Below, piece after piece: positions 1 through 51,049 of a stretch of DNA of 64,000 nt (its first letter is position 1; each line of letters starts with the position of its first letter). The position numbers and the translations under genes were made by a program. Below the pieces are notes generated by a model. It was not told the DNA's origin. It made no database searches and worked only from the letters and a program-made list of their open reading frames with translations. Source of the stretch: Pecten maximus (taxonomy: Eukaryota); NCBI RefSeq assembly GCF_902652985.1, contig NC_047019.1:24552001-24616000 (forward strand), written 5' to 3'.

Positions 1-3000
1 TTACTTCATATCTTTAACTGCTGGTATACATTATGTGATGTAAAGACTGTTAATCCGTACTGGACACATTTAACCCTTTATGTAGATACCGTTGAGGTGA
101 TTTTTTTTCTCTTGCTTCTAGTTACGTGAATCCTGATATATGGTCCTCTGGTTATTTTTGTGTATCTACTCCACAGCTAAGATATAGATTGATTGCTTCT
201 GCAGTGATTTTTTTTCTAAATACATTTAATGCCTTTTCGATATTAGTAACACCATTGTGTTCTTTCCCATAATCAAATAAACTATGCCTAATGATTTTAA
301 TTCAATATTAATAGTTCCAGTGCAATCAATAATCCATTTCTTACTTTATTACTCACTTAAGATTCGTTTAATTATTCTAACATTTATCTCACTTGTCGCA
401 TGTATTTACCAAGCTCTTTTACAACTTCTGTTATATCAATTTATCTATATACATTTTGATGCGTGACATCCTAGGAGCTCCGCTAATGCGAAATTATGTG
501 TAATGCATAATTGATGGAATTCTTCAAAATGCAGTTAAGTAAATGTCATTTATTTTACTCTGAAATGGATTATAGGATGATCGGCTGCTTACGGAAAATG
601 TTTGTTTGATCATTAACGATATAAGTTATATATAAGTACATGGTTAGATGTGTCTAGGATATCGCACGACATATACAGAAGTAGTCGGTACTCAACATTC
701 CACCATGGTCACGATTCGGGTAAATAATTAGTCATCCTGAACGTACTTTAGTACTTTCTATTTTTATTACCTCGTGATGTATTTAAGATAATTTCAATAT
801 TTATGTTACAATTAGGGTTCATTGTGGACAAACACAAATGGACGGACTTAGTGCGGTTCTAGGCATGACGATTGTCACTGACGGAGGAGCGGTTGTTTGT
901 ACAATTGTTGTTACTTAGAAACTGCGGAATGAAACTAATTCTATGTTCCAATTAACACGGCGATATTAATATCTTATTTCAGACAGTGGTATAATCGGCA
1001 AGTATGTGTTCATTGTAGCATGATACCACCAACTCATTCTGATTGAAACAAAGGAAAGTCTTTAAAAACAGATAAAATAGCTACCAATAATATCGTATAT
1101 CATTGGGACGTTATACTGATTCAAATCGCGTCACCTCCGATAAAACATGGGCATCGTTTTCCCTTTTTACTCCAAATAATATATTTACATATCCTCCTTT
1201 CTTACGTTATAGGACGTTACCAGGTCTAGTATTTTAAAGATATAATTGGTCATGGTGAAGATTTCAGCATGAAAACTGACTTATATTATAGTTCCGATTA
1301 AACATAGTTTTTATCATGTAGAATGCCCCCTCTATTAATTCAAACATTATGAATGATGTTTCATCTTAAAATCAGAAGAATTATCTATTATTCCACAAAC
1401 CAAATAAACCTTCACCAAGTACATGCAAGAAAGAAATGCCATCAAGACATATTACTGTCTATTTAATACATTATAAACGGTTCCCATACCAAATTGACTA
1501 CAACGTAAATAGACTGCACACATGTCGATGCTGATGGCGTAAGATGAAGGAAACTGATAGAACCAAGTATGGGACTGAACGGACTGTTTTTACGACACCA
1601 CTGCCAACACTTTGGTTAAGATGAAATAATTTATAGCACATATCAATTACAACAAAACGTGATTCTAAATGAATACATGTGATGCCTTATTAGCCTGGTT
1701 TGCGCTGACACGTACACTACGCTAACTTTACTACACTCTTCCGGAAGTAAACGATACCGGGAATGATAGTGATACATAGAGCACCATCTGCCAAGGATTG
1801 GCCTAGAGATGGATGCCAACCATACGGCCATAATTCAAAGATGTTACGTCGAAATACGAAGGCAGTAAATTAAATCCCTTTGGGAGAGAGACTGATATTG
1901 TTTCGTATATCTTAAGTGCTATCTTTTGTTTGCGGAATACACATGCTATTTACGAGAGCATTTATGGAAGTTTCGTGATCATATGCTCATTTTAACTGCC
2001 ATCGACTTCATAGCTATTGGTGTGAAGAAAATATTTTCCAAATCTCCTCATTCCATCGTCTAACCCTAAAGTTGTCCTACGGTCTCGTTGTTTGGGATGG
2101 GACCAATAACCCATTATTTGTTTTATAACGTTAAATGACTGACAAGCGATATATTCATTTACAGCACATTGAAACCCTTCACAAATGACATTCTAATATC
2201 ATATAACATTATACTTTTTTCCAAAAAAAGATATGTATTATTACATATACTGTCGTCATTATTTTGGCATGTTGTTATGTACTGCCATATAAAGACAACC
2301 TTATTCAATGAAGCTCGGCCTGTAACGATCTGTAGGGATCCGACTCTGGAACCAAATGCTGCTTTCCTGACACTAGATTGTCTTGAAGACGAAAGTGTGG
2401 CAAAGGTTAGCAAATGACCAGGATTATGTAATTTACAGTTGGATATTGCGATTGCTTTCGATCTCACACACCTACTACTGGACAGTGTATCCCTTGAAAC
2501 ACTATTCAGACACTTTATCGATAGTAACGTCCTAATCAAAGATTCTCTTTTAGCTCAAACTCCAAAACATCTATCATGTCTACCAATGTATTGTAATTTT
2601 GATTGCATAATGTTACCAATCAATTAAAAGTTTTAATCGGACCCATCCATTCTTTAACTTGAAATTATTTCGGGATTGCTAGAAGTCAGGAACATAACGA
2701 TGCGTGTGATTCCACGACATGTGGGTTTGAATACATTTACGATGTTTGTAACTTTTCGTATTGTGATAATGTACGGTTTTGTCGTTCATTGTTTGTAAAT
2801 GCATACCCTACGCTGTCTTATTTAAATCTTCATCGCTTCTCCAACCATTCAGTGGTTAGAAATCAGCCAGCCTGTCACTGATGTTGGGAATAACACACAC
2901 GTCTTTTGCCCTACCTGGTAACACTTGGCGAACATTACATTCTTGTTGAGCAGACGCCCGCTGTCGGCTTTGATAGCGTCATTTAAATAATTAGTTGACG

Positions 3001-3640
3001 TAGGTTTAAACAGACAATTGGGACTAATTGGGGGAAAATATGTTCTTTGAAATAGTTCGGGAGAGTGATGCTTTTTCCAGCCTTGTTTTAAGCCTTGTTA
3101 TGTTCCTGTTGGGTATAGGACCAATTCATGGTTGGTTTTACATTATGAAAACTATTGTGTGATAATTTGCCTATAGGACTTGTTGTTCAAAATTAACTGT
3201 AGGCATAAGATATAAAGGTCGTCGAATATGGCAATATGTATAGGATCTTAAAGCACGTTGGGTGTTTATGCGTCTGTCTCTATATAGTCACAATGCTTAT
3301 TCACGCGGAATCACGTGCGCGCGGCGAGAGCTTAAACCCCATTAGTATAACAACGGAACCATTTTACTTTACATATGTGATATCAAAGCAACTAGAAAAT
3401 TAATGGAGAATGCAAAACAGAGTTGACTTATTCCATTTGTTCCCGTCTGATTCTAAAGAAATGCAAATTCGTTCCCATTTTTTATTAATCTATTTTAAAC
3501 ACGCCACAGTTCATACAGGGCGAATGCATGTAATGTAGATTTGTTGCGCAGTGTATCTAGATATCATTTCTTTTACATTCTGTGTTGTAAATTTGTACTG
3601 ATTTTGGTTTATGTATAGGAAGAAGTTTCTATATACTTAC

Positions 3641-3682
3641 CTCCTAAGCACGCGTGAATAGACCATCTCCCTCGGCATTTCC
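3641..3682 (-). CDS. GGNG/GGNamide (excitatory peptide, EP/CCHamide family) neuropeptide precursor, 42-nt coding exon carrying the mature peptide core
   Basis: Minus strand reads ttttatgttcacag|GG AAA TGC CGA GGG AGA TGG TCT ATT CAC GCG TGC TTA GGA G|gtaagt: canonical acceptor and donor, phase 1/1. It translates (G)KCRGRWSIHACLG(G), matching the molluscan/annelid EP motif KCxGxWxIHxCxGGN-amide (e.g. Thais excitatory peptide KCSGKWAIHACWGGNa). Confidence 0.93.
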
Positions 3683-5313
3683 CTGTGAACATAAAACATA
3701 GATAGTATTACAAAATCATACCCAATTAGTTAATAATTATGGTCATTGAAACAAACAAAAAATGTCCTAGAAAAAAGAAAACTCAATAAAATCTTGAATA
3801 AAATGTTTACCAGGAAAAGAACACTAAACACTTCCACAATGAGTAAGACTTAGTAATTGATCAGATGTATTATTATGTAATCAGTGAGTACTTATACAAG
3901 TCAGGGACATGTGTGTAAGAAGTATGTTGATAATACATTAGGCTGTTCAGTAACAGGTCAAATGTAAAGGAGATCAACTGATTAGTAACATGAATCACGT
4001 AAAAATAACTAGGTCGAATTAGCTCTGAAAAATAAAATATCAAAATAAGTATACAAGCAAACGTCGGCAATGTAAACGTCTATTAAGTTTTTTTTGTATT
4101 TAATGCAAAATAACGCTAAAATTCACGGACGTGAGTGTTCTGTTGAAAATGATGATTCACTCCACTTAATATGACATTCAGAAAACGGCGCAGTACATAA
4201 TATAGTGTAAATTACAAAAGCTAATTAGACTGCGTTATACAAAATGTTTCGGAAAAACCAAACAAACAGAAAACATGTTGTCATTTGAAGACATGCAATT
4301 CTATACTAAATTAAAGTTGTTTTTACGAAATAAAGTTAGGCATGATGATTTTGATATGAGATTGGAATGCTCTCTTGCTTGGAATCTAAAAGTATCTGTC
4401 TGCTCAAGGAGTAATTTAATTCATTTTTACAATTGTAACATGTTGTCTCTCCTACATTTTCTATATCAGCCATCGGTAACTTTACATGATCAGTAATGAC
4501 TGCTAACAAAGTTGTCATTATTCTGATGTTCTCAAACACGCGGCTAAATTTGATGTAATCTAACTGTTGGAACATAAGACATATCTAATGTGATAACATT
4601 CACGTTTCTACAAACTTCACGAGAGATGGAAGTACCTGATATAGAACAATGCTGCCTCTAGATTATATCATACCCTGTCTACATCCACTTTATGGGGCCT
4701 TGAATTGATTGTTAGTACTCGATAGAACCAGACCAAAAGAGACATCAACGCCAGGTGTATCATTTTAGAAGAGTCATATCTGATCACAATGTTTCAAACA
4801 GAAATATATAATGACACAATATATTCTTTCGCTAACTCATAGTACTCACAATAGCATCCGTACTAAAATATAAAAAGAGATTGCTTATTCATCACCTTGA
4901 CCTACTTTCTATGTTATCTAGCTCTGTCATTGTCTTTGAATTTATCAATACAGAAATGAATCAAACATATTAATGATTTGATAATCTAACTGATGAACTA
5001 TGAAGTGAATGTATTTATATAAAGTCACAATATACATACTAGATAGAAGACAATACCTTTAATCGTACTTAAGATACAATACATCATCTAGCTGGACTAT
5101 AAAAGGAGAAAACACATTTAAAATATTATAATGGGCACACGCGCAATACAACCGGGTGGCGCTCTTATATCTTAATAATTAAGTAGGTTTTAGATACCTA
5201 CTATAATGAAAAACCGAGAAGGGAGAGAGAGGGGGGGCTTAAGGACATGGTCAAATCGAAAACTACGAATAACTATATCAGCAACAAAGCATGGGAACTG
5301 TAATACTAGGAAC

Positions 5314-5817
5314 TACTCAACCAAAAAACAACCTACAACAGAGTATGAGGACAGTATCACTGTGATATACTTCACCAAAAACCAACCTACAACAGAGTAT
5401 GAGGACAGTATCACTGTGATATACTTCACCAAAAACCAACCTACAACAGAGTATGAGGACAGGATCACTGTGATATACTTCACCAAAAACCAACCTACAA
5501 CGGAGTATGAGGACAGTATTACTTCGAAATACTTCACCAAAAGTCTACCTACAACAGAGTTTGAGGACAGTATTACTGCGAAATACTTCACCAAAAATCT
5601 ACCTACAACAGAGTATGAGGACAGTATTACTGCGATATACTTTACCAGAAATCTCACTAAAGCAGAGTACATGTATGAAGACAGAATTATTGCGATATAC
5701 TCAAAAAGATCTACCTACAACATAGAATTAGTACTATAATAATATGATGTACTCCACTTAAAATCGATCTACAACAGAGTATGAGGACTGTAATACTACT
5801 ATATACTCCACCAAAAA
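5314..5817. repeat. 54-bp minisatellite, about 9 copies, intronic
   Basis: Unit ctacaacagagtatgaggacagtatcactgtgatatacttcaccaaaaaccaac, decaying toward the right. It explains ORFs 5206-5739, 5313-5672 and 5507-5725. Confidence 0.95.
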
Positions 5818-8800
5818 TGTATTAGTGTTATTATTGTTATTATTTGTTTTAGTTGCCAAACCGTATCTCATTGAGAATACTTTTCACAGATAAATTTCAA
5901 TGAACACAAATCCATGATTTTAAGAAACTGTATGACTTGCTTAGTATGATTGGAGAATGCGCTGACAATCGTGTACATCGTACAAGTTAAAGCATAGCCG
6001 TTGAAAGTGATCGGTGGGATGTTTTCATAAAAATAGCTATTTATCAAATCAACGGTAAGTTCAAAGCACCGATAAACAAAAGTGGCCCTCACAAGTAAAC
6101 GTAGTTTAGACATGTCAAAGGTTTGATATCAGTTTGTGAAAAAATAAGAAGTAAAATGTGCTAGATCCAAACGCCTCATTGAATGAAGATAGTATTCCCT
6201 AGGTATTTTTGCTGGAACCGTCAGCACGTAAATGATATCTACGAATAGCCTGAAAACCCTAGACAGAATTCATTCAATCTACGGTTGTGGTTTGTAATCT
6301 CTTACAATTCTAAATACAGTTTCTGAGGTCTTTCTCCTGATGTCTGATCGACACAGCTCCAATTTTACCGAAAGCTTATCTAGTGAACATATTTTTGATC
6401 AATTCTCAATCGAAATAGACAAATATCATCATGAATGCAATTTCTGGCATCCGGAAAAAATCATTGATCTGAGCCCCATACACGTTTGCACCGGTTGATG
6501 TGCTTGAGATGCAGCTGAAACAGAACGGTGATCTAGATCAGATAGAAGAAATAGACATATCGGTTTACCATGTAGAACAGTAATGTCTAATATAGAAGAA
6601 TGGTCACTCATTATTAAATAAGGAAAACAAAGAAATATATATCAGCAGATTTTAATATAGATACATGTATGTAGACTAGGAAAATAATCACTTTCGTGAT
6701 AATTTAGTTCCTGGATTTCTCCCAGGGTGGAATTGGCATACCAAGTGTCAATCATTGTATCGTACTGATCTAAAAGCTATTAGGCGCCGTAGACAGTGAG
6801 TTCGGGGCCCGGTCAGGGCACAACTCATAAAATTGTCATCCTTTTTTGTGTTACTATGCCATATATCTAACAATTAGAAGAGTGTATCATATGCACTATG
6901 TGTTGTTGATTCGAATGTTACATATTTGGATTTTTTGTCGTAATTGCATTTTGTTGATTATACGCCCAGTTATAAGAAAAGACAACTTTAATTGATGCCA
7001 TAATTATAGTAAAAAAACCACATTGCAGTAGTGTTTAAAATTATAAAAATGTATGTCACTGTTATCATATTAACTGGAAAATATCTTATTTATTTATAAC
7101 GAAAATACTCAACTATATGGCTCTAGTTCATCAATGAAGCCATACTATATATTTTACGTATTTTAGCAGCGTTATACATGTACATGGTTGATAATTTTTT
7201 CATACAAAATCATTATGGAAGCGAAAAATACTTTCCAGTCTCTATCGATAGGGGTTTCTATTTCCAATTCATCTCTACTCTGTTTATACCAAATTATCAC
7301 TATGTGTTAAATATCCGATGGATAAACTATCAAAGAGCTAGCTTTGGTATCAACAGGTTACATTGATGGTATACTAGATACTTGAAACTGTAGGGGATGT
7401 CCTTTATTAATTTCAACTGCCAACAAGACAATGTAACAAAGGTTATTTGATGCACTAGCAACGCAAAGCATAAACTGTAAAACACAAAAGAACAGCTAAT
7501 GTCAGTACGTCGGTTTTGGACAGATTTAACAGCTTATTTCTAGCCTAGGTGGCGACATGTAACACAATGGTTGATCCTTTGAGATATCTTAATCTCTTTT
7601 AATCATTCCATATACGCAATGCCATGCACTTTGGAAGCATACAGACACAAAAGAAAAATGTGGTTATGAATATATTTTGAACATTTGCTTACATTTTGTT
7701 CCCTCAGCTTAATTCTGACTTTGTAATGGCCTCCCTGGGAATCATGGGCAAGTCTTTTTTCAATATTTGTAATTTAATCCAAATAAATGCAGTATAATTA
7801 TACATAATATCTTTGATGTTTTCCCTCTTTTTTTCTGGCTTCATTCTTGCAATAAACTCATATGTCCTAGATGGATATTACCGCACATCATTTTTTCATC
7901 TTTGATTTGTCATCTGTAGATATTACAGATATGAAAATTGCATAACTTCATTTCAACAACGCAAATATATCGTTAACAAATAACTGTAACATTCCACAAA
8001 TCAAAGGGTCAGGACGGGGCAGGAGAACACTAATCATTCTCCCCCATCGTGGACGAGATAGGTGAATCCCAGCCCTAAAGGGTCTTAAGTTGACAAAAAA
8101 AAAAAAAAAAAAAAAATCATGCCTCGTGTTGGTAACTGCAGAATCTCCCCCTCCGGAAATTTTCTAAATTATCCACGAGTGAGTGATTTGAAGATTGTAT
8201 TATACATGTAATACTGAATGAATAGAACGTTTTTTACAAACAATACTATAAAGTTATCTTTTCCAGAGATATAGAGAGCTTGCATGTGCTGTGTACTCTT
8301 GTTCAATGTTCCGTAATCCATATCATCCTAGTATATTTATTAACTTGAACAGTCTATGGAACAACGGTTTTGTTTCTGTATTTCAGAGTTGTCTGATCTC
8401 ATGCCTTTTTAACATTAATTGGTTCCGTGTATTGCACGATCAAAACCCTTTTTTGAAAAGAACTGACCATCTTCTTTGATAAAATGATGCTTGTGAATGG
8501 TAATAGTTTGAGTACAGATGCCGATAAGACGCTGTTGACAACGCCAATGCCGAGATGGTCTCTCATCGAAAGCCTATTTCAACTGTGTTCGAATTCGTAG
8601 ACAATTGTTAGGTCTGACCCCAGATGCCATTTATTACCTTAAGTGAGACGTGCATGCTTGTGATATAGAGGAAGCAGACAAGACGACAACGCGAGCCTCA
8701 GGCGAATCCTATGTATATGTCATTAGTATCTTAAATGGACGTTCTAAGCTAGGACCTATCCTTTTATACACATATTTGTTCAGTGTGATGCTAAACTTAA

Positions 8801-11769: not shown

Positions 11770-13110
11770 CTACCAGTAGCTGGATATGAAATCAATTCTG
11801 GAGTGACTGAATATTATATCAATAAAAATGACTACAACAGCTCTCGGTTACTGAATACAATAAAAGTCAACTACTGACTAACACAGCTTTCAGATGTTGA
11901 ATACAATATCTGTGAAAATGTGGTTAAACTAGCTCCTAGTTACTGACTTCATTATAGAGCAACTTACGGCAACAACATCATCCTCGATTAACTATATAAT
12001 AGGGAACAACCAACCAATTGAAAAAATATATTTTTCAAACATCCCTTGTGTATAGAAAGTTGAGCCAGGGATAAAATGTCTGGCAGCCACTGATTGGCCA
12101 GTATGTTATGAAGTAAGAAAATAGATATGTGGCCTGATAGGTAACTGTCCATAAGAAATGTTGATATAAAGTCCGATTGAATTTTTTCCCAAAAGTTCAG
12201 GTCATAATAATTAATAGGTAAACATCTCAGATTTTTGAGAATTTTTACTGCGAAATTCACTCATTTTCAAAATGGCAACGCTGACAAAAAATTGGACTGA
12301 AGGACCCAACTTTCTTTTTTTCATTACGTGTTATACGAGACCGTAACCTTTTGTTATAAACCATAATTGCCAAATTGAATTCAAGAATTTTAATGATATA
12401 CTCTAAAACGTTAGCACTAAAGTCTATGGAGAAACAATTGGTTGGTTGGTCCCTAATACAGCCATCCATTTCAGAATATAACATCTGCCAGTAACTATCT
12501 ACAAGAGAGATCAGTTACTGAACATAACAAATGTCAGTGACTATCTACAACAGCCACCAGTCATTTGATACAACGAATACCAATGTATATCTAAAATATA
12601 ACTATCTACAACAGCTGTCAAACACAGAATATAACATCTGCCAAAAATTACAACCATTAGTTACTGAATATAACATCTGCATATATATATATATATATAT
12701 ACAATGTAACTACCACAGCCGTTAATTACTGAATATAACTTTTGGCAGTAACTATCTACAACAACCATCATTTACAACATCTGCAAGTATAACATCTGCA
12801 AGTAGCTATCTACAACAGCCGTCAGTTACCGAATATAACATATGTCAATAACTATCTAAAACAACCATCATTTACGTAATATAACATCTGCCAACAAGTA
12901 TCTACAACAACCATCAGTTTCTGAATATAGCATTTGCCAATCACTATCTGCAGCAACCAACAGTTACTAAACATCAGTCAGTAACTATTTACAACAGTCG
13001 TCAATTACTGAATATAACATCTGCCAATAATGAATGTAATCTGTCAGTAATTATCTACAACAGCCATCATTTACTGAATAAAGCACCTACCAATGACTAG
13101 CTGCAGATTT
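11770..13110. repeat. Degenerate ~46-bp minisatellite interrupted by a MITE
   Basis: Unit approximately cagttactgaatataacatctgccagtaactatctacaacagccat. Clear at 12458-13110, decayed copies at 11770-12000. Confidence 0.85.
12001..12454. mobile_element. 454-bp MITE, probably PIF/Harbinger-related (3-bp AAT TSD)
   Basis: 20-bp TIRs agggaacaaccaaccaattg / caattggttggttggtccct (1 mismatch), with aat on both sides. Removing the element restores a repeat unit of normal length. Confidence 0.85.
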
Positions 13111-15709
13111 ATCTGAATATCACAGGTTTTTCTCAGTAATACGATTGAGAACAAAAGTCAACCGAACGAAACCTCCACTGCAAAGAAGGCTATTCTAATA
13201 AGATTGTCTTTCATTGAACAGATTTTCTTGATATCGTAAAACACAATACATTTGCTATATTGAAAATCTTACAGGGTCTCTATATTGTCAGCAAAAGTTA
13301 CGAAAATAAGGTAGATCTGTCATGGAATGAAGGTTCCATTGCAATTTTTTTCACCTTTTCCTAGCCTCAATGTTTTTCTTTTTTTTTTTTTTTGCTTATT
13401 GCTTAGTCTTCAGGAGTATGACTGAGTGCTTATCTCTGTTTACATTGGACTCAAATGAACTTGTGTCGCTTAAATAAAACATTCGTAAAACAGATAGGCA
13501 ATAATACACAACGTTATGGTTGAATTCCAGTTCAGTACAAACCAATAAAGAAAACATACTAATAGTAATAGGTGAGAATGTATATACTGTACACTATCCT
13601 ATCACTGATGATACACACATGGAAAGCAGAAACAGCGCTATATATACTCCTGGGGAATTAATATTTTAAATAACATATAGCTATCACTTCTATTTGATAT
13701 GTATTTGTATAACAATATGTGTAACGGGAATGAAACAGATCAGACGCACTCGAATGTTTCGCAGTAATGACAATAAATGGTGAGCTGTAATCTGGTTGTT
13801 GTAGCTACCCTGTAAGATCATATACGATCAACATACAACTGTACATGAACATGATTATCTAATTAGCCCAACACTAACATATTGGATATATGAGTACAAA
13901 GTGACGTGTATATCAGATTCTAATTATACTGATTATACTGTATATTAAGTGGCATGCAATAACCTCTAGCTAGTGATAAACATGGCGTCATTAACGTGAA
14001 TCAGCAAATCAGGTATTTCAGTACAATAGAATTATCTTAAAACAATGAGGTACATTTCGACATCTGAGTTTGGTAATATCGTCAAAAGATGGTGATATTT
14101 ACGTATTTGAAGATAAGTACGATTGTCCCGATTTGTTGATTTCACATTACAATGACCAGAAACTCGCATACCTAGTTATACAGGTGATATACAGGTTTCA
14201 TATAAAGCGTTGATACTGCTAAATTGAGCATTTAGGTGCGTATTTGCTTCTGTGATATATCACAACATACATGTCTTGTAAATACCAACCTATTAGATAC
14301 GTCCAGTGAAATGCTATACATCAATCATAGATATGAATATACTGATATATAGTGCATACAAACTAATCTTATCTAAACATATATCTATCTACATCTCTAC
14401 GCATTTATTCTAGCAGATTCATACCTCTCCAGCCTGAAAAAATAAACAATATAAAACATCTGTTAATAGGATATTCCTTTATATTTTATTGTGACGATTA
14501 TCGTGATGATAAGGCTTTTATCAGCTAGAAACAAAATAATTTATTTAGAGGCATTGACAAAGTTTCTTGTGTCGGGTAATACATAAATAATATTGACGTA
14601 GTATATACATTAAGATATGCAAATGAGATGTCGTCATAACATCCGAACGGCTAACGTCATACGTCCAGACAGTGCTGTGATAAGGACTAGACATACGATA
14701 CTGTTTAGGAGTAATTAGTTCTTACTGTATAACATTATGTAAATATATTCATGACGTTTTTCGAAACTTTGTAATTGCATACTATTGTATATCATAAGAA
14801 ATAAAAAAAAAGTTAAATAATATATTGTACATCACTTTACACCATCACTGATCGGAGGAGATGTAAGAACATTAATTAGATACCGGGGATTTATATTGCT
14901 TTTTGCTCAGTTAGAAATCTAAATGACAGTATGATGATTCGTATAGCTTTTCACAGAAAAATAGCACCATTCACAAATTATCGATTTCTTTTTACCTAAT
15001 TCAAAGATAAAACTGATCCTTGTATTGTGATCGTAGCATATCACTATCCAGTGTACCCGACTCTATGTCTTAAATGGCATTTACTTTAAGCCCTATAGAT
15101 GCCTGATCAAACCGGGAGAAATCAATTTCACTCGACTGCAAATACCATGATCTCTCTCCGGAAGCCAAGCGAAACATTTACATCAAATTGGCTATTTTAT
15201 AAATCATGATCATGTCCAGGCTTATTCTACCGAATACTCAATTTTGCTTTATATGATGTTAAGCTTACCGTCACTTGATGGAGATTGCTATTCTGATGTT
15301 CTGTGTTTAATGCGTCAATGAACGCTACATTCATACTGTTATAGCGGTGTTATAGGTCTCTATACCCGGGTGTTATAGAAGGTACATACGACGACAAAAT
15401 AGCCATCGTAGAAGTTTTAGTTTACTATCTATGGTGGAGTTTTCACGTATAACATTGTCTTAGCCATTACAAAACTTTGTATGTATATTTATATGTAAAA
15501 GACATTGAGCTTAGTTTAGGCTGTCTAGGTCATTTATGGTATGTTTAACTTGCTTCCATAGCCTTCATTGAATATAAAATTGCACTGTTGTTACATATTC
15601 GAAACATCAGTTCGACGCTTTTGTATGAGCGTTTGAGATGAAATTTGGGAGTGACATCTAGTTATTTCGAATAAATAGCAATTCCATGTAACAGTTTACA
15701 ACACGACAT

Positions 15710-16930: not shown

Positions 16931-17009
16931 CTGCTGATACAGATGATATATTTACGGATAGGTATACACAACATGTCGCAGCGAATAACCAGATACACCT
17001 GTGGTTCAT
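16931..17009 (-). CDS. GGNG/GGNamide precursor, signal-peptide exon (first coding exon)
   Basis: aaagATG...TCA GCA G|gtaagt, 79 nt (26 codons + 1). It encodes MNHRCIWLFAATCCVYLSVNISSVSA: basic N-region, hydrophobic core and V-S-A (-3,-1) cleavage site, placed immediately before the peptide as is typical of EP/CCHamide precursors. Confidence 0.88.
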
Positions 17010-17126
17010 CTTTAGCTGTCTCAAAGTTCCAAAGTAACGGGCAAACAAGTGTGCAAGAACTCCAACCAAGCCTACTAAGCCTTTAGATATGTACAGTTAG
17101 ACGGCCTTGTATAGGTGTGCTATCTG

Positions 17127-17193
17127 GGAACGAGTCTTGTATTGCCAAACGGTACTCGTTCCTCTTTGGTGTGAAACTTTTTAAATCACCAAT
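17127..17193 (-). promoter_or_regulatory. Candidate core promoter/5' UTR start of the neuropeptide gene
   Basis: Minus-strand TATA-like GATTTAAAAAG (17187-17177) about 29 nt upstream of a GAGTA and about 170 nt upstream of the ATG. A 9-bp inverted repeat ggaacgagt/actcgttcc spans 17127-17162. Weak: an upstream non-coding exon is equally possible. Confidence 0.25.
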
Positions 17194-18029
17194 ATTTGTA
17201 TGGAGTGTTTCTAGTTAACTACTATCGCGTGTCGGTTCAGAATGTGTAGTTTTTAGTGCTTACCGCCCCCGTGAACGGCATACATTGACACTACCTAGGC
17301 CGGTATAGGGATGGTCAGGAATCATGGATCGGTTTATCAGACTGAGCAAAGAGACAAGGTATTGGATATTGGCTTGCTAGGGGGGAGGCCTTGCTGAACA
17401 AACACGCACGGTTTCTCTATTATTGATTGCTAATAGATGTATAGTAATTCACTACAACTATTACATCAGCTCACAATAAAACATTCTCGCCCCCTTTATG
17501 CATTTTTGTACCAAGAGAGGCGATATAGAAATCTAGTAAGGGGTCAAGGGATTTGTCATAGTACTTTTATTCGTCATCACTTCATGGTTGTTGTGCATTT
17601 TGACATTTTTGAAAACAAACTAAACAAACAGTTTCACCACCATCGATGTGTATTTGATGATCTTTCAAAAATATCAAACGGTGTTGGTTTGGAAGCGTAA
17701 ATAAGCGAATCATCAAAAATGTTAAAGTCTGTTAGAGTTGACATGTAATTTCTATATCGTACCGGAGTTAATTTTAACACAACTTTCAATTATGCAGTTT
17801 TGAATTAGTCTATTGTTTCAAAAATTATAAAGGAAAACAGTCATTGCCATCAATGTAAACCAAATACTTATTAAAATCGTATAATGAATACTGTACAGCA
17901 ATACACTTGTCCTTCTTCTTTCAATGTTTCCTACATATTTGTTGATATTATCTTTATGATTAATACTGGCGTTAACACACCATATAGCTATTGTGCAGTT
18001 TGATACAATCACGTTGATCTACTGAACAT

Positions 18030-20280
18030 TTTGACACGGCCAAGTGTTATGTATTGTACACTTTGATACGGTCACGTGCTACGCTTGTAACTACCGTGCA
18101 ACTTAACACGTTCATGTGTTATCAACTGTACAGTGCGTTACGATCATGTGTTACGTACCGTTCATTTCGATACAGTCACCTGTTATGTTATACATTATGA
18201 TATGGTCACATATTATCTGCTGTATATTGTGATACGGTCACGTGGTATCTGTTATACAGTGGATACGGCCACGTGCTATCTGTTGTACATTGAGATACGG
18301 TCACATATTATTTGTTGTACATAGTGATATGGTCAAGTGTTATCTGCTGTAAAAAAGCAAATGCAGCATTTTGGGAGTGGGACGACTGGTTGGTCCGTTG
18401 TCAGTACAACGCGACCGGATGGGGTGTCCTGCAGTATGCTTCAGTGGGGTAGCACTATACATCTGTAAAAGTTAACGTTCCGGCCTATCACAAGGAGACT
18501 TAACACGAAATACCGCAGCCCCCACAAACACATATACGCACTAACCACACGCATGCATATCGCAAACACGAAAGGCCGTCCTTAAATTACCATAGCTGTT
18601 AATAGGACGTCAAACAAATGAAACCAAACCAAACCAAGCATTAAACAGTCACGTATTATCTGCTGTTCAGTGTGACACGGTCACGTGTTATCAACGATAC
18701 AACGTGATACAGTCACGTGTTACCTACTGTACAGTATGATACAGTCACGTGTTATCTACTGTACAGGGTGATACAGTCACGTGTTATCTACTGTACAGTA
18801 TGATACGGTTACGTGTTATCTACTGTACAGTGCGATACAGTCACGTGTTATCTACTGTACAGTGTGATACAGTCACGTGTTATCTACTGTACAGTATGAT
18901 ACGGTCACGTGTTATCTACTGTACAGTGTGATATAGTCACGTGTTATCTACTGTACAGTGTGGTACAGTCACGTGTTATCTACTGTACAGTGTGATACGG
19001 TCACGTGTTATCTACTGTATAGTATGATACAGTCACGTGTTATCTACTGTACAGTGTGATACGGTCATGTGTTATCTACTGTACAGTGTGATACGGTCAC
19101 GTGTTATCTACTGTACAGTGTGATACGGTCACGTGTTACAGTGTGATACGGTCACGTGTTATCTACTGTACAGTGTGATACGGTCACGTGTTATCTACTG
19201 TACAGTGTGATACGGTCACGTGTTATCTACTGTTCAGTGTGATACAGTCACGTGTAACCTACTGCACAGTGTGATACAGTCACGTGTTATCTACTGTACA
19301 GTGTGATACAGTCACGTGTTATCTACTGTACAGTGTGATACAGTCACGTGTTATATACTGTACAGTGTGATACAGTCACGTGTTATCTACTGTACAGTGT
19401 GATACAGTCACGTGTTATCTATTGTACAGTGTGATACAGTCACGTATTATCTACTGTACAGTGTGATACAGTCACGTGTTATCTACTGTATAGTGTGATA
19501 CAGTCACGTGTTATCTACTGTACAGTGTGATACAGTCACGTGTTATCTACTGTACAGTGTGTTACAGTCACGTGTTATCTACTGTACAGTGTGATACAGT
19601 CATATGTTATCTACTGTATAGTGTGATACAGTCACGTGTTATCTACTGTACAGTGGGATACAGTCACGTGTTATCTATTGTACAGTGTGATACAGTCACG
19701 TATTATCTACTGTACAGTGTGATACTGTCACATGTTATCTACTGTATAGTGTGATACAGTCACGTGTTATCTACTGTACAGTGTAATACAGTCATGTGTT
19801 ATCTACTGTACAGTGTGATACAGTCACGTGTTATCTACTTACAGTGTGATACAGTCATGAGCTACACTTGTAACTACCGTACAACTTCACACGCTTACGT
19901 GTAACCTACTGTGTTACATACAATATTGTACTGGTCATTTCGATACGGTCGAATGTTATATATTGTGATATGGTCACATATTATCTGCTGTATAGTGTAA
20001 TACAGTCACGTGCTATCTAATATAGAGGTTGATACTGTTATGGGCTGTATACTGTACAGCGTGATATGATCACGTGTTACATGCTGTACAGTTGATACGG
20101 TCTGCTGTATATTGTGATATGATCACATGTTATCTGTTGTACAGTAGATACGGTCACATGTTATCCGCTGTATATTGTGATATCATCACGTGTTATATGC
20201 TGCAATGTGTGATACGATCACGTGTTATCTTCTCTACAGTGTCACATGTCAACTTGTATCCATCATGTTTAACTTCACAC
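18030..20280. repeat. 32-bp satellite rich in CACGTG; homogeneous core 18645-19858 (about 38 units) with degenerate flanks
   Basis: Unit gtgatacagtcacgtgttatctactgtacagt, containing the palindromes CACGTG and ACTGTACAGT. Confidence 0.97.
18361..18637 (+). mobile_element. 5'-truncated MetaSINE-type SINE inserted in the satellite flank
   Basis: gcagcatt..gggagt..gactggttggtcc..tcagta.aa.g.gacc resembles the Meta domain. 3' tail gtccttaaattaccatagctgttaataggacgt followed by (aaacc)n. Confidence 0.75.
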
Positions 20281-21249
20281 CGCACATGGACATATTATAA
20301 CTCTTAATGAAATCAAGTCGGCGGTTAAACCTGACCGTGTTGTCTGTAGTCAGTTGTCGATATATATGTCATTGGAATCGAGCTGATAAACTGATACCTG
20401 TATATACGCGAGGAAGGGGAAACGTAAATAAATAGGTATATTTTATATATTCCAAGGGTATATCTGATCGACCTGGTCGATAAAGTTACTAGTACTTTAA
20501 TATATTCGTAAATATGTACAAAGTACTAATAGGCTCTTCAATATCAACCCCGTACGTGCATCAAGAACACTTTCAGGTGAAAACAGTTTTTGTTCATAGC
20601 AGGTGATGATATGTAATTTTTTGATTTCCTCATTTTATGAACGTTAATGAGTCTTTTAATCTGCTGATGTGATATCATTATTTTCACGTGGATATAATTT
20701 GACATTGCTTCATTTAAGAATGAAACATCTATTAAAATAGATAAGTCTGTCTGATTCTCTTGAACTGATTGTTTGCCTCATAAAAATACTTTCCCTGCAA
20801 ATGATTTACCCTCAAACTCATTATTTTGATATCATAACGATGATGCAAAGTCATTTATACGCAACCAATTTAATGAAAACAAAAGAAATATGAGACGAAT
20901 TGATGCATGATCGATGTAACATGCCAATCATCATAACCCGTAAACTCTGTACATTACCATGCCATTATGTCTTATTAGAAACCGCCAAGCATAGCATTAA
21001 AAATAACCAAACAATAAAAAAGACAATGATTTAATGGGGTTTCGTGTGTGATTTTCCTGCGAGTATCGCTAGTAGTAGACATAAACTTGCGGAGAAATGT
21101 TAACTTCAATATTTAATATGCACGTAGACGATTAAGAAGATCGTATTTTTTATAGAAAAATGCGTCTCCTACAGATAATCAAAAGAAATAAGGTAGAAAA
21201 AACAATATTTTAGATATCTAATTTTAACGAGGTAGGTATATATCTAACT

Positions 21250-21834
21250 TACCATACAGTAAAGATCGCAATTCTCAATAATGAATTAATAGCATTTCGT
21301 GACTTTAAACAACTTGATAATGTGTATGTGTTAATCTGGTTATCAAGCAGACCTAATCAATTTTGTGAAGAGAAAATTTGGTAGTCCTGACTGACAAGGA
21401 TTTCTATAACTTATTAGATGACTTACCTGCAGACACAGCCACAAACCAGTCATGCAATTTCTGTTTGTGCTGTTTTAACATCGGTAGCAAGAAATAAAGA
21501 CTTCCATGGGTTTTTTTTTAATTTGAGCTGTGTATTCTTATAAAAAACTCTAAACAAGTTAAGTTCAATTCACTCTGAACACTGACAGTGAATTAGCTGC
21601 AACATACTCTTGCTTTATCCATTATCTGGCATATTCTGCAACGGAATCCATAAGTATCTTAAGATTCGTATTATATTTAATGGAAGGATTATCTTGATAG
21701 TTTGGACCCTTCATGGAAATCCTCAATAAATCATCATATTGAATAATGCAAAGATCACCAGTTACGACGTGTACAACAGGACAATCATTGTAGATGGACT
21801 GAAAAGTATGCTGCGTTCGAAGGTACAAAAACAT
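21250..21834 (-). mobile_element. Penelope-like retroelement RT N-terminal relic
   Basis: HVVTGDLCII..DLLRISMKGPNY..NLKILMDSVAEYAR followed by LHDWFVAVSAGKSSNK. These resemble the H(V/I)ITGDL..KGPKYRE..MDSVEDYAR and LHDKYVVVPADKASNN motifs of bivalve PLE ORFs. Confidence 0.7.
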
Positions 21835-22039
21835 ATGATTAGAATTAAGATCTTGCAGTGATTCCTAGCATTCATCTTTTAAAATAATAGAACGAAATGA
21901 CGACAATTTGTATAAAAACATATCCTTTGAATCAGCATTGTCATAATCTCTGTATAAGACACAAAAAAACCCAACAACAACAACAACAAAAAACGCCGAC
22001 AAAATAACAAAAAAGTTAACCACACAAAACAAAAAAGAT

Positions 22040-22682
22040 ATACCGACGTAATAAAAAAGAATACCGAAATAATAAAGGCAAACAATACCGACATAATAAC
22101 AAAGCAAACTGAAATAATCACAAATAATACCGACATAATCACAAAGAATACCGACTTTAAAGCAAAGAATATTGACATACTGACAAGGCAAACTGACATA
22201 ATGACAAAGAATACTGACATAATAACAAAGAAAACCGACATAATGACCAAGAATACCGACATAATGACCAAGAATACCGACATTATAACAAAGAATACTG
22301 AAATAATAATAAAGAATACTGACATAATGACGACGAATACCGAAATAATAACAAAGAATACTGACATAATGACATCGAATACTGACATAATGACAAAGAA
22401 TACTGACATTATAACAAGGAATACCGAAATAATAAAAAAAAGAATACCGACATAATGACAACGAATACTGAAAAAAATAACAAAAAATACAGACACAATA
22501 ACAAAGAATGTCGATATATTAACAAAGAATACCGACATACATATGTAATGACAAAGAATACCGACATTATAACAAAGAATACTGAAATAATAAAAAAAAG
22601 AATACCGACATAATGACAACGAATACTGAAAAAAATAACAAAAAATACCGACATAATGACAAAGAATATTGATATAATGACA
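22040..22682. repeat. 21-bp minisatellite (aagaatactgacataatgaca), about 30 copies
   Basis: Direct inspection. It accounts for ORFs 21865-22461, 21879-22619, 22201-22455 and 22409-22714. Confidence 0.95.
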
Positions 22683-48744: not shown

Positions 48745-49750
48745 CATCCTCATGTAACCATAACTGTTTGTGTCCGCCTTCACATCCATCCTTATGTAAC
48801 CATGACCGTTTGTGTCCGCCTTCACATCCATCCTCATGTAACCATGACTGTTTGTGTCCTCCTTCACATCCATCCTCATATGACCACGACAGTTTGTGTC
48901 CTCCTTCACATCCATCCTCATGTAACCATGGCTGTTTGTGTCCTCCTTCACATCCATCCTCATGTAACCATGGCTGTTTGTGTCCTCCTTCACATCCATC
49001 CTCATGTAACCATGGCTGTTTGTGTCCTCCTCTTCACATCCATCCTCATGTAACCATGACTGTTTGTGTCCTCCTTCACATCCATCCTCATATGACCACG
49101 ACAGTTTGTGTCCTCCTTCACATCCATCCTCATGTAACCATGGCTGTTTGTGTCCTCCTTCACATCCATCCTCATGTAATCATGACTGTTTGTGTCCTCC
49201 TCTTCACATCCATCCTCATGTAACCATGGCTGTTTGTGTCCTCCTTCACATCCATCCTCATGTAACCATGGCTGTTTGTGTCCGCCTTCACATCCATCCT
49301 CATATGACCATGACTGTTTGTGTCCTCCTTCACATCCATCCTCATGTAACCATGGCTGTCTGTGTCCTCCTTCACATCCATCCTCATGTAATCACGACTG
49401 TTTGTGTCCTCCTTCACATCCATCCTCATGTAACCATGGCTGTTTGTGTCCTCCTTCACATCCATCCTCATGTAACCATGACTGTTTGTGTCCTCCTTCA
49501 CATCCATCCTCATGTAACCATGGCTGTTTGTGTCCTCCTTCACATCCATCCTCATGTAATCATGACTGTTTGTGTCCTCCTCTTCACATCCATCCTCATG
49601 TAACCATGGCTGTTTGTGTCCTCCTTCACATCCATCCTCATGTAATCATGACTGTTTGTGTCCTCCTCTTCACATCCATCCTCATGTAATCATGACTGTT
49701 TGTGTCTTCCTTCACATCCATCCTCATGTAACCATGACTGTTTGTGTCCC
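48745..49750. repeat. 42-bp minisatellite (about 24 copies) with 44-bp variants
   Basis: Unit cttcacatccatcctcatgtaaccatggctgtttgtgtcctc. It generates all ORFs from 48523 to 49772. Confidence 0.97.
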
Positions 49751-51049
49751 TTTCCCATCAGCTCCTGTATGACTATGGCTGTTGCTGGGAAGTTTTATCC
49801 CAAACAAATAGATAAGCCATTCTATTTGCTTTGAATTGTGTCTTTACTTATTGGGCTTTTTTATTGATACCTTTTTGACTTCAAGCTTATCTAACTACAT
49901 GAATTGATGCGCAATAAATAATCACCATAACAGGTATTCTATATCAAATTCATTTTCCATGCTAAATCATGTTCAGTTTATCTAAAATAAAAACTAAAAC
50001 AAGCCGCCATGTTTCACAGAAATTAGTTTTCATTTGTGTTAAAGTACAAAAAGAAAATATCAGGGGCCCTCATCAACTCTGCGATTCACATTATATTTAC
50101 AGAATCGAATCCAAAATTAGTCCTGGCTATGTTATTAACTGTGACGTTTAACAATTATACGAATTCCTTGAAGTACCTTTAGGGATTGTTTTAGAATGAA
50201 ATATACCATAATAAGATTTAATTAAATATGTATATTTTTTAAACAGCTGTACTGAAAGACAAGATCCCTGGAGTGTAACCGTACTAGTTTTAATAGATTT
50301 GGCATAGAAACAACATTATCTAGGGTATAAAACATATACGGGTAAGGTCACGTGTCAGCTTTTCAATCTATCACGTGACATGTAGATCATATAGATTGAT
50401 ATTGAAGTGACGTGGTTGCGGCAGTGTTATATTTCCGGGGATGTTTTGGGTACCGTATTTGGAGCCATTTCTTCTCCTACAAATGACAATGGATTGGTGT
50501 TGACTCGCTTGTAGGCGTTTATGGACACTCTCGTTCAGTGCTCGGTGATAAAACGTCCGCCCTAACTCAGGAAATCTTTATCTAAGCCGTGCTTTTCAAC
50601 TCATAAATAAACGGTAAACATGTAACAAGTATTGATGCAAATCTGACTCCGCCGATATAAATTGTTATCTACGTTGGTATTTCTAAAAAGCTGCTCTCCG
50701 TTAATCTTCCATTGTATGGAAACTAACTCAAGAACTATCCTTAACTTATCAAAGGTCAAGGAAGAACAAGTTCCCAAAGTGCTACAAAGATAAAACAAAC
50801 AGAACAATGGAAACATCATGGATTAGTTTAAGCTTTGGCTAGATTCAGACGAGTTATTGAGGACTCGGAGTTACTGTTACAATTTCTAACTATCAATTCA
50901 TTAACCTCGATTTAAGTTCATCAAACGTAAAAATAACAAAATACATATATACATTGAAAATGGTGACCATTAGTGACATTTTTGGAAATAATTCTAGTAA
51001 AAGTTAAAACCATTACATAACAAAGCATAATTCAAAGTCAAGTTTTTTT

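What the first reader, a model, noticed from the sequence alone, without database searches (positions are those of the whole stretch)
18030..20280. Satellite with about 35 canonical E-boxes 1-3 kb upstream of the neuropeptide start codon
Seen: each 32-bp unit carries GTCACGTG plus a second palindrome ACTGTACAGT. By hand I count about 30 intact CACGTG in the core and about 7 in the flanks, spaced about 3 helical turns apart, on the 5' side of the GGNG ATG. Established: CACGTG binds bHLH-PAS/bHLH-ZIP factors (CLOCK:BMAL1/CYC, USF, MITF/TFE, MYC:MAX), and GTCACGTG is the USF/TFE-preferred context. Inference: this may be a copy-number-variable, repeat-built enhancer or factor sink that could impose circadian or nutritional control on a reproductive/feeding peptide. 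The CpG in most units has not decayed, which suggests a young or unmethylated array. Proximity could be coincidental.
Basis: partly seen in the sequence, partly recalled or inferred. Interest (0 to 1): 0.7.

Follow-up and report, generated by a model that had tools for sequence, protein, structure and literature searches.

The report
E-box minisatellite beside scallop neuropeptide gene
A 32-base sequence repeated about 38 times, with 37 E-box protein-binding motifs in it and its worn flanks, lies 1-3 kb before a scallop neuropeptide gene, but repeats bearing the same motif occur at an estimated thousands of places in this genome, so it is likely an ordinary passenger rather than a gene switch.

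Summary
In detail: 37 CACGTG at 18073-20224 (30 core, 7 flank; about 10 expected per 64 kb), 1.0-3.2 kb 5' of the ATG (17009, minus strand) of the king-scallop GGNamide (EP/CCHamide-type) gene.

The enhancer reading finds little support. Tandem repeats cover 26% of a 1.2-Mb genome sample; 7 of 294 minisatellites carry CACGTG; E-box triplets occur 20,393 times genome-wide, and at least six other loci share the 32-bp, five-box layout. Within the core the E-box changes as often as the rest of the unit (9/216 vs 41/936). Its CpG retention matches the surroundings, 30-34 bp is the commonest period, and non-E-box CpG palindromes form arrays at similar rates.

Against this: the array holds more E-boxes than any of 120 sampled 10-kb stretches, CACGTG is about threefold over shuffled expectation, and the fly homologue is clock-controlled. 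No binding, expression or orthologue test was possible.

Verdict: probably neutral; about 10% chance of a real regulatory role. By-catch: a conserved alternative 9-nt microexon, and GpC depletion in scallop minisatellites.

The parts
18645..19857 (.). Homogenised core of the minisatellite: 32-bp unit, 38.2 copies, 30 intact CACGTG; one shortened 23-bp unit near 19130-19153; TTATCT (a GATA-type site on the minus strand, motif recalled) follows the E-box in 32 of 36 full units
   Evidence: TRF; unit table; 95.7% mean identity to the modal unit
18036..18351 (.). Old degenerate units on the gene side of the SINE (about 10 units, 3 intact CACGTG)
   Evidence: own-genome DNA search gives 8 of 8 matches inside this array
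19858..20245 (.). Old degenerate units on the far side (4 intact CACGTG); about 320 bp here align with the gene-side flank, an old segmental duplication within the array
   Evidence: 74% identity
18364..18640 (+). 5'-truncated SINE-like retroelement inside the array, ending in (CCAAA)n; other copies carry a longer shared 5' part; superfamily not assigned; no clear target-site duplication
   Evidence: 5,385 first-look candidates, 40 scored, best other copies 83-85%; alignment with 11 copies; junctions
17010..18030 (-). 5' UTR and likely proximal promoter of GGNamide: single-copy (17060-18030), two CCAAT (17372, 17365), two GGGGCG (17493, 17269), no CACGTG, no canonical TATA
   Evidence: four RNA-type contigs run unspliced to 17072, 17160, 17214 and 17273
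16931..17009 (-). GGNamide first coding exon (signal-peptide region), phase-1 GT donor
   Evidence: spliced contigs; same residues as P0003/P0004
14425..14433 (-). Alternative 9-nt microexon adding three residues (W-R-G) before the mature peptide
   Evidence: Included in run X13, skipped in X1 and X5; located; 143- vs 140-aa isoforms in related scallops
3641..3682 (-). Exon encoding the body of the mature GGNamide peptide; the next exon (amidation Gly, KR, tail) lies about 5.3 kb beyond the window start (L036 4712-4462)
21369..21519 (-). One 151-nt contig (depth 4) over a strong predicted donor at 21427, read through unspliced; a weak hint of a minor upstream first exon
   Evidence: (1 of 4 runs)

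Best explanation
This is a single-locus 32-bp minisatellite lying 1-3 kb upstream of the scallop GGNamide start codon, which likely grew on the spot by repeated tandem duplication and likely carries its E-box as a passenger rather than as a selected enhancer. Shown: the unit, the 37 E-boxes, the old flanks, the SINE inside, the homogeneous core, the uniqueness of the unit, and the abundance of other E-box arrays. Inferred history: a local 32-bp stretch was amplified and decayed, about 320 bp of it was duplicated, a SINE inserted, and the middle was re-amplified recently by slippage or unequal exchange, copying the E-box along with everything else. Inferred consequence: because the DNA looks unmethylated, USF/Max/MiT-TFE-type proteins may well bind it when chromatin is open, as at many similar arrays, with little or no selected effect on the gene.
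For: Base rate: tandem repeats cover 26% of 120 evenly spread 10-kb stretches, with 294 minisatellites (245 per Mb); 7 of 294 carry CACGTG, 3 of 146 with at least 10 copies. CACGTG triplets number 20,393 genome-wide; this array gives 18 by the same spacing rule. The exact 32-bp, five-box layout has 303 matches, and the first 50 come from six other loci with different units. Chance of an E-box array within 3.3 kb of a given ATG is 1-2%. Over the 63 neuropeptide genes of PMC5996578 that is 45-75% for at least one (my arithmetic, uniform placement assumed). No conservation signal in the core: E-box 9 changes in 216, rest 41 in 936, P=1.0. Triplets per background count are alike for CACGTG (20,393/180 = 113), GACGTC (13,622/131 = 104) and GTCGAC (8,282/84 = 99). 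87 of 1,000 dinucleotide shuffles of this unit contain CACGTG. 89 of 146 long arrays carry some motif of a 19-motif recalled panel. Local birth: 34 of 37 near matches of a 21-mer are in this array, and only 12 of 294 sampled units share a 14-mer with another stretch.
Against: The array is large: the highest CACGTG count in any of 120 sampled 10-kb stretches was 25, against 37 here. CACGTG is in 7 of 294 units against 2.4 in dinucleotide shuffles (1 of 200 reach 7), and it is the most frequent of six same-composition palindromes tested genome-wide. In the old flanks the E-box differs less than its neighbours (15/96 vs 62/224, P=0.02 ungapped against the core unit; 15/102 vs 94/442, P=0.17 gapped against the flank consensus; units not independent). 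The nearest unit is under 1 kb from the contig 5' ends. Periods show a weak bias to multiples of 10.5 bp (Rayleigh P about 0.03, n=265). CCHamide1 staining cycles under clock control in fly DN1a neurons (PMC6139358 section 12). An array can be neutral in origin and still act on a neighbour; none of my tests measures that.
Confidence: 0.78

Rival explanations
1. Exapted VNTR enhancer or sink: born neutrally, the array now binds USF/Max/MiT-TFE dimers and tunes GGNamide level by copy number.
For: 33 GTCACGTG sites; retained CpG; 0.8-3.2 kb from the likely start region, whose proximal kilobase has no CACGTG; more boxes than any sampled stretch; human TERT VNTR2-1 repeats carry CACGTG, and the neighbouring VNTR2-2 raised reporter activity in some cell lines (PMC2915984 passages).
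Against: No E-box conservation in the core; the base after the box is T in 36 of 36 core units, so the full GTCACGTGAC palindrome (recalled USF/CLEAR optimum) is absent; thousands of comparable arrays are estimated; a SINE sits between core and promoter.
Confidence: 0.11
2. Circadian enhancer: CLOCK:BMAL1/CYC binds the array and drives daily or tidal GGNamide transcription.
For: Canonical CACGTG; EP and CCHamide are described as homologous, and Aplysia EP is a satiation signal (PMC12969411 abstract); fly CCHa1 peptide cycles and loses its difference between time points in per01.
Against: The fly result is peptide staining, not E-box-driven transcription. The 26-bp spacer is not the 6-7-bp tandem E-box spacing of clock genes (recalled). 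A species-level repeat would not explain an old conserved rhythm. The same base-rate arguments apply.
Confidence: 0.04
3. Genome-wide cause: an E-box-binding protein, or some property of ACGT-centred palindromes, favours birth or growth of minisatellites, so the motif marks the mutation process and not gene control.
For: About threefold CACGTG excess in units; 20,393 vs 2,091 for the reversed hexamer and 303 vs 3 at period 32.
Against: The reversed control GTGCAC holds GpC, which scallop minisatellites avoid (o/e 0.46). GACGTC and GTCGAC are as frequent relative to background. Palindromes of 6 bp or more are not enriched in units (70 of 170 vs 66.9 shuffled). The array folds only slightly better than shuffles (z -1.7, 11 of 200).
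Confidence: 0.07

Closest known systems
Human TERT intron-2 minisatellite VNTR2-1 (42-bp unit with CACGTG; PMC2915984, passages read)
   Same: Single-locus minisatellite with a canonical E-box in many units, a few kb from a transcription start.
   Different: TERT's array is intronic and known to be polymorphic; enhancer-like activity through E-box factors was reported for it (Xu et al. 2021 PNAS, recalled, paper not held). Here the array is most likely upstream, polymorphism and activity are untested, and the genome holds an estimated thousands of E-box arrays.
Scallop tandem-repeat landscape (PMC10225492, passages: tandem repeats 21.7% of the Amusium pleuronectes assembly)
   Same: 26% tandem-repeat cover in my sample; AC/GT-rich, GpC-poor unit; period in the modal 30-34 bp class; locus-specific unit.
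   Different: This array is at the high end for E-box number and sits near a neuropeptide start.
GGNamide / GGNG / excitatory peptide (EP)-CCHamide precursor (P. yessoensis MH045222, PMC5996578; Pecten maximus LOC117327615 isoforms X1 and X2)
   Same: Signal peptide followed directly by the disulfide peptide and Gly-Lys-Arg; the three exons I translated read the same as P0004.
   Different: Nothing in the protein. My searches found no paper on its upstream region or on its 9-nt microexon.
Bivalve tRNA-derived SINEs (PMC11481361, passages)
   Same: Short, high-copy, 5'-truncated, simple-repeat tail.
   Different: Superfamily (Core, V, Meta, Deu) not assigned: no consensus library was on hand.

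Membership tests
Minisatellite / VNTR | Head-to-tail units of 10-100 bp in an array of about 0.1-20 kb | tested here: met
   32 bp x 38.2 in the core, 2.2 kb overall
Minisatellite / VNTR | Locus-specific unit | tested here: met
   5 of 5 exact 43-mer matches and 34 of 37 near 21-mer matches in this array
Minisatellite / VNTR | Copy number varies between individuals | not testable with these tools
Satellite DNA family | Same unit in large or many arrays across the genome | tested here: not met
   best similarity to a sampled unit 34 vs 22-30 for shuffles
Transposon-borne tandem repeat (MITE/Helitron internal array) | Multi-copy element ends flanking the array | tested here: inconclusive
   Gene-side flank 17060-18030 is single-copy and the unit is unique; the far flank beyond 20280 was not searched
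CLOCK:BMAL1/CYC circadian enhancer | Canonical CACGTG near the promoter | tested here: met
CLOCK:BMAL1/CYC circadian enhancer | Paired E-boxes 6-7 bp apart (feature recalled) | tested here: not met
   Spacer 26 bp, once 17 bp
CLOCK:BMAL1/CYC circadian enhancer | Binding and rhythmic transcription of the target | not testable with these tools
   Only assembled contigs of public runs were available
USF / MiT-TFE (CLEAR) element | Full GTCACGTGAC palindrome (motif recalled) | tested here: not met
   GTCACGTG x33, but T follows in 36 of 36 core units; a half-optimal site
Functional TF-site VNTR (TERT VNTR2-1 type) | Motif kept better than the rest of the unit | tested here: not met
   Core 9/216 vs 41/936, P=1.0; flanks P=0.02 then 0.17
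Functional TF-site VNTR (TERT VNTR2-1 type) | Motif-dependent reporter activity or length-expression link | not testable with these tools
   Needs bench or population data
GGNamide (GGNG/EP/CCHamide) precursor gene | Signal peptide, two-Cys peptide ending GGN-G-KR, spliced transcript | tested here: met

The most novel reading that the evidence does not exclude
A lineage-specific minisatellite has been recruited as a copy-number-tunable E-box enhancer of scallop GGNamide, an EP/CCHamide-type satiation or reproductive peptide, so that array length sets peptide level or rhythm between individuals. It would be one of many such repeat-built bHLH enhancers in a genome that is one-quarter tandem repeat.
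Probability: 0.1. Interest if true: 0.6.

Novelty: new member of a known kind. Interest (0 to 1): 0.2.

Why it matters
As it stands it is a cautionary example: in a genome with about 245 minisatellites per Mb, a motif-rich array near a gene start is expected by chance. If it did act on GGNamide, it would give a PCR-typeable length marker for a feeding or spawning peptide in a farmed scallop, and an invertebrate parallel to TERT VNTR2-1. The genome-wide counts made here define the matched control set that any such test needs.

Tried and rejected
(1) Array in a 5'-UTR intron. A strong donor at 21427 and a TATA-like stretch near 21545 suggested an upstream first exon. 3 of 4 contigs run unspliced 150-260 nt past the ATG, and none of the 4 has a foreign loose end there (one ends in a 14-letter adapter-like tail). 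On 20290-21950 only 1 of 4 runs had a piece, a 151-nt unspliced one. Not supported as the main form, not excluded as a minor one (about 15%). Contigs cannot fix a start site, and lack of cover proves nothing. (2) Tenfold genome-wide E-box enrichment: mostly an effect of the GpC-containing control. (3) Unit as a dimer or fold-back of a 16-mer: significant against base shuffles (1 of 300) but not against dinucleotide shuffles (75 and 351 of 1,000). (4) Hairpin-driven expansion: z -1.7 only. (5) Dispersed satellite family: rejected. (6) Orthologous DNA: none found in metagenome contigs (597 pattern hits, 0 confirmed), and no relatives' genomes are held, so presence in other scallops is open. (7) No run was listed as RNA on record; spliced joints show the X1, X5 and X13 contigs come from RNA. 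(8) Literature: searches listed no paper on this array; (tandem repeat + E-box + enhancer + minisatellite + USF) returned 0. The TERT VNTR2-1 enhancer paper was not held. (9) No earlier scan note near this place or with these words.

Full report
1. Observation. The window holds 46 CACGTG against 9.6 expected from shuffles; 37 lie at 18073-20224, 30 in the core and 7 in the flanks. TRF gives a 32-bp unit, 38.2 copies and 91% matches at 18645-19857, with weaker arrays of the same period at 18169-18351 and 20048-20242. The 36 full core units average 95.7% identity to the modal unit; 28 of them have an intact box (two shortened units supply the other two core boxes). ACTGTACAGT occurs 26 times.

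2. The gene. On the minus strand the ATG is at 17009, and the first coding exon ends at 16931. The mature-peptide exon is at 3682-3641, and the exon with Gly-Lys-Arg lies 5.3 kb beyond the window start. The search with that exon returned 2 hits among 5 candidates, both from scallops (92% Ylistrum, 89% Argopecten). Their clusters hold Pecten maximus LOC117327615 X1/X2 and Mizuhopecten GGNamide, and my translated exons read as P0004 (compared by eye). The P. yessoensis precursor in the supplement of PMC5996578 has the same layout. So the gene is king-scallop GGNamide, of the EP/CCHamide group. Contigs from 3 of 4 laid runs splice the first coding exon to the peptide exon, one of them through a 9-nt microexon.

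3. Position relative to the start. Contigs from four studies continue unspliced upstream of the ATG to 17072, 17160, 17214 and 17273. The kilobase 17060-18030 is single-copy and has CCAAT and GC-box-like words but no CACGTG. The simplest reading is a start region at about 17070-17300, with the array 0.8-3.2 kb upstream. A predicted donor at 21427 is covered by one 151-nt, depth-4, unspliced contig in 1 of 4 runs, so a minor upstream exon, which would put the array in an intron, remains possible.

4. Anatomy and history. The unit is confined to this locus: 5 of 5 exact 43-mer matches, 34 of 37 two-mismatch 21-mer matches, and 8 of 8 DNA-search hits for the degenerate flank. A 5'-truncated SINE-like element sits at 18364-18640 (5,385 first-look candidates; best other copies 83-85%). 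Degenerate units lie on both sides of the SINE and core, and the two flanks share an old duplicated segment of about 320 bp. I infer an old array, then the duplication and the insertion (their order is unknown), then a recent re-amplification of the middle. 'Young array' holds for the core only.

5. Is the E-box content special? In 120 evenly spread 10-kb stretches (1.2 Mb, all used), TRF covers 26%. There are 294 minisatellites of period 10-100 with at least 3 copies; 7 carry CACGTG in the consensus, 3 of the 146 with at least 10 copies and 0 of the 67 with at least 30. Four of 120 stretches hold an E-box cluster, the largest with 21 boxes. Scaled up, that is roughly 2,000-5,000 E-box arrays, and perhaps hundreds with 20 or more boxes (n=1, very uncertain). 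Genome-wide triplet counts are CACGTG 20,393, GACGTC 13,622, CAGCTG 11,341, GTCGAC 8,282, GTGCAC 2,091 and CTGCAG 2,057. Divided by non-repeat background counts these give 113, 104, 59, 99, 22 and 13. CACGTG is therefore like the other CpG palindromes, while the GpC-containing words are lower, the TGCA-centred ones most of all. Five boxes at exactly 32 bp occur 303 times, and the first 50 matches come from six unrelated arrays. The chance of an E-box array within 3.3 kb of a given ATG is 1-2%.

6. Selection, CpG and phasing. In the core the E-box changes at 4.2% of positions and the rest at 4.4% (9/216 vs 41/936). CpG transitions are no commoner than at other C/G (5/72 vs 18/396, P=0.38), which fits a lack of germ-line methylation. 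But CpG o/e is 0.90 in the window without the array and 0.87-0.94 in the flanks, against a sample median of 0.80, so this is a regional trait. Oyster methylation is mosaic, with tandem repeats about twice the intergenic background (PMC4378273 passages). Periods of 31-33 bp make up 27 of 294 arrays, so three helical turns carries little information.

7. Results against my reading. This array has more E-boxes than any sampled stretch (37 vs at most 25). CACGTG is about threefold above shuffled expectation among units (7 vs 2.4; 1 of 200 shuffles). The flank E-boxes look somewhat better kept (P=0.02, or 0.17 after realignment). There is a weak 10.5-bp bias in periods (P about 0.03). Biology gives some prior: Aplysia EP is a satiation signal (PMC12969411, abstract and outline), fly CCHa1 cycles under per control (PMC6139358, abstract and section 12), and human TERT VNTR2-1 carries CACGTG in many repeats (PMC2915984, passages).

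8. Mechanism. Most likely (0.78): local tandem amplification that copied an incidental E-box, with bHLH-ZIP binding possible but unselected. Rivals: exapted USF/Max/TFE VNTR (0.11), an E-box-linked bias in repeat birth (0.07), clock enhancer (0.04). The structure and base rates are shown; the history, binding and neutrality are inferred.

9. Known versus new. It is a new member of a known kind: a motif-bearing minisatellite in a repeat-rich scallop genome (tandem repeats 21.7% in Amusium, PMC10225492 passages; its Table S13 was not opened). It resembles TERT VNTR2-1 in layout only. Of PMC5996578 I saw passages and supplement hits; of PMC11481361, passages. Searches listed nothing on this array. 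Binding preferences of USF, TFE and CLOCK, and the motif panel, are recalled. Interest 0.2.

Noticed in passing
window 14425-14433 (-): Alternative 9-nt microexon adds W-R-G between the signal peptide and GGNamide. It is included in one run and skipped in two. Both 143- and 140-aa isoforms are annotated in Pecten and Mizuhopecten, the long one in Ylistrum and the short one in Argopecten. It could yield an N-terminally extended peptide or add a basic cleavage site. It is conserved across scallops and not mentioned in the passages I read.
   Followed up: partly
L074-L193 (1.2-Mb genome sample): Minisatellite units are strongly depleted of GpC: o/e 0.46 (bootstrap 0.38-0.55) vs 0.88 in adjacent non-repeat DNA, falling to 0.32-0.34 in arrays of 10 or more copies; AC/GT is enriched (1.39). 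Few units are related (12 of 294). Unexplained; it may reflect what can expand, and may be a better lead than the finding itself.
   Followed up: partly
L074-L193: Weak clustering of minisatellite periods at multiples of 10.5 bp (Rayleigh R 0.11, P about 0.03, phase near 0, n=265); TRF period doubling may contribute.
   Followed up: partly
window 21369-21545 (-): Strong predicted donor at 21427 (and another at 21253), a TATA-like stretch about 26 nt before 21519, and a single low-depth contig whose upstream end is at 21519: a possible minor upstream first exon.
   Followed up: partly
window 17039-17042: All 4 laid runs lack one base here relative to the window: an assembly homopolymer error or an allele in the 5' UTR.
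   Followed up: no
G000 C1:124,146; C1:9,234,009; C3:30,219,133; C4:13,651,492; C5:581,305; C5:16,480,646: Other 32-bp arrays with five or more consecutive perfect E-boxes and unrelated units; ready-made controls. The C3 array has two E-boxes per unit about 10 bp apart.
   Followed up: no
window 5320-5818, 12788-13030, 21996-22682, 28506-28861, 48745-49749: Further minisatellites (54, 46, 21, 72 and 42 bp), two inside GGNamide introns; the long ORFs they produce are repeat artefacts.
   Followed up: no
window 50349-50377: Two CACGTG 23 bp apart outside the array.
   Followed up: no
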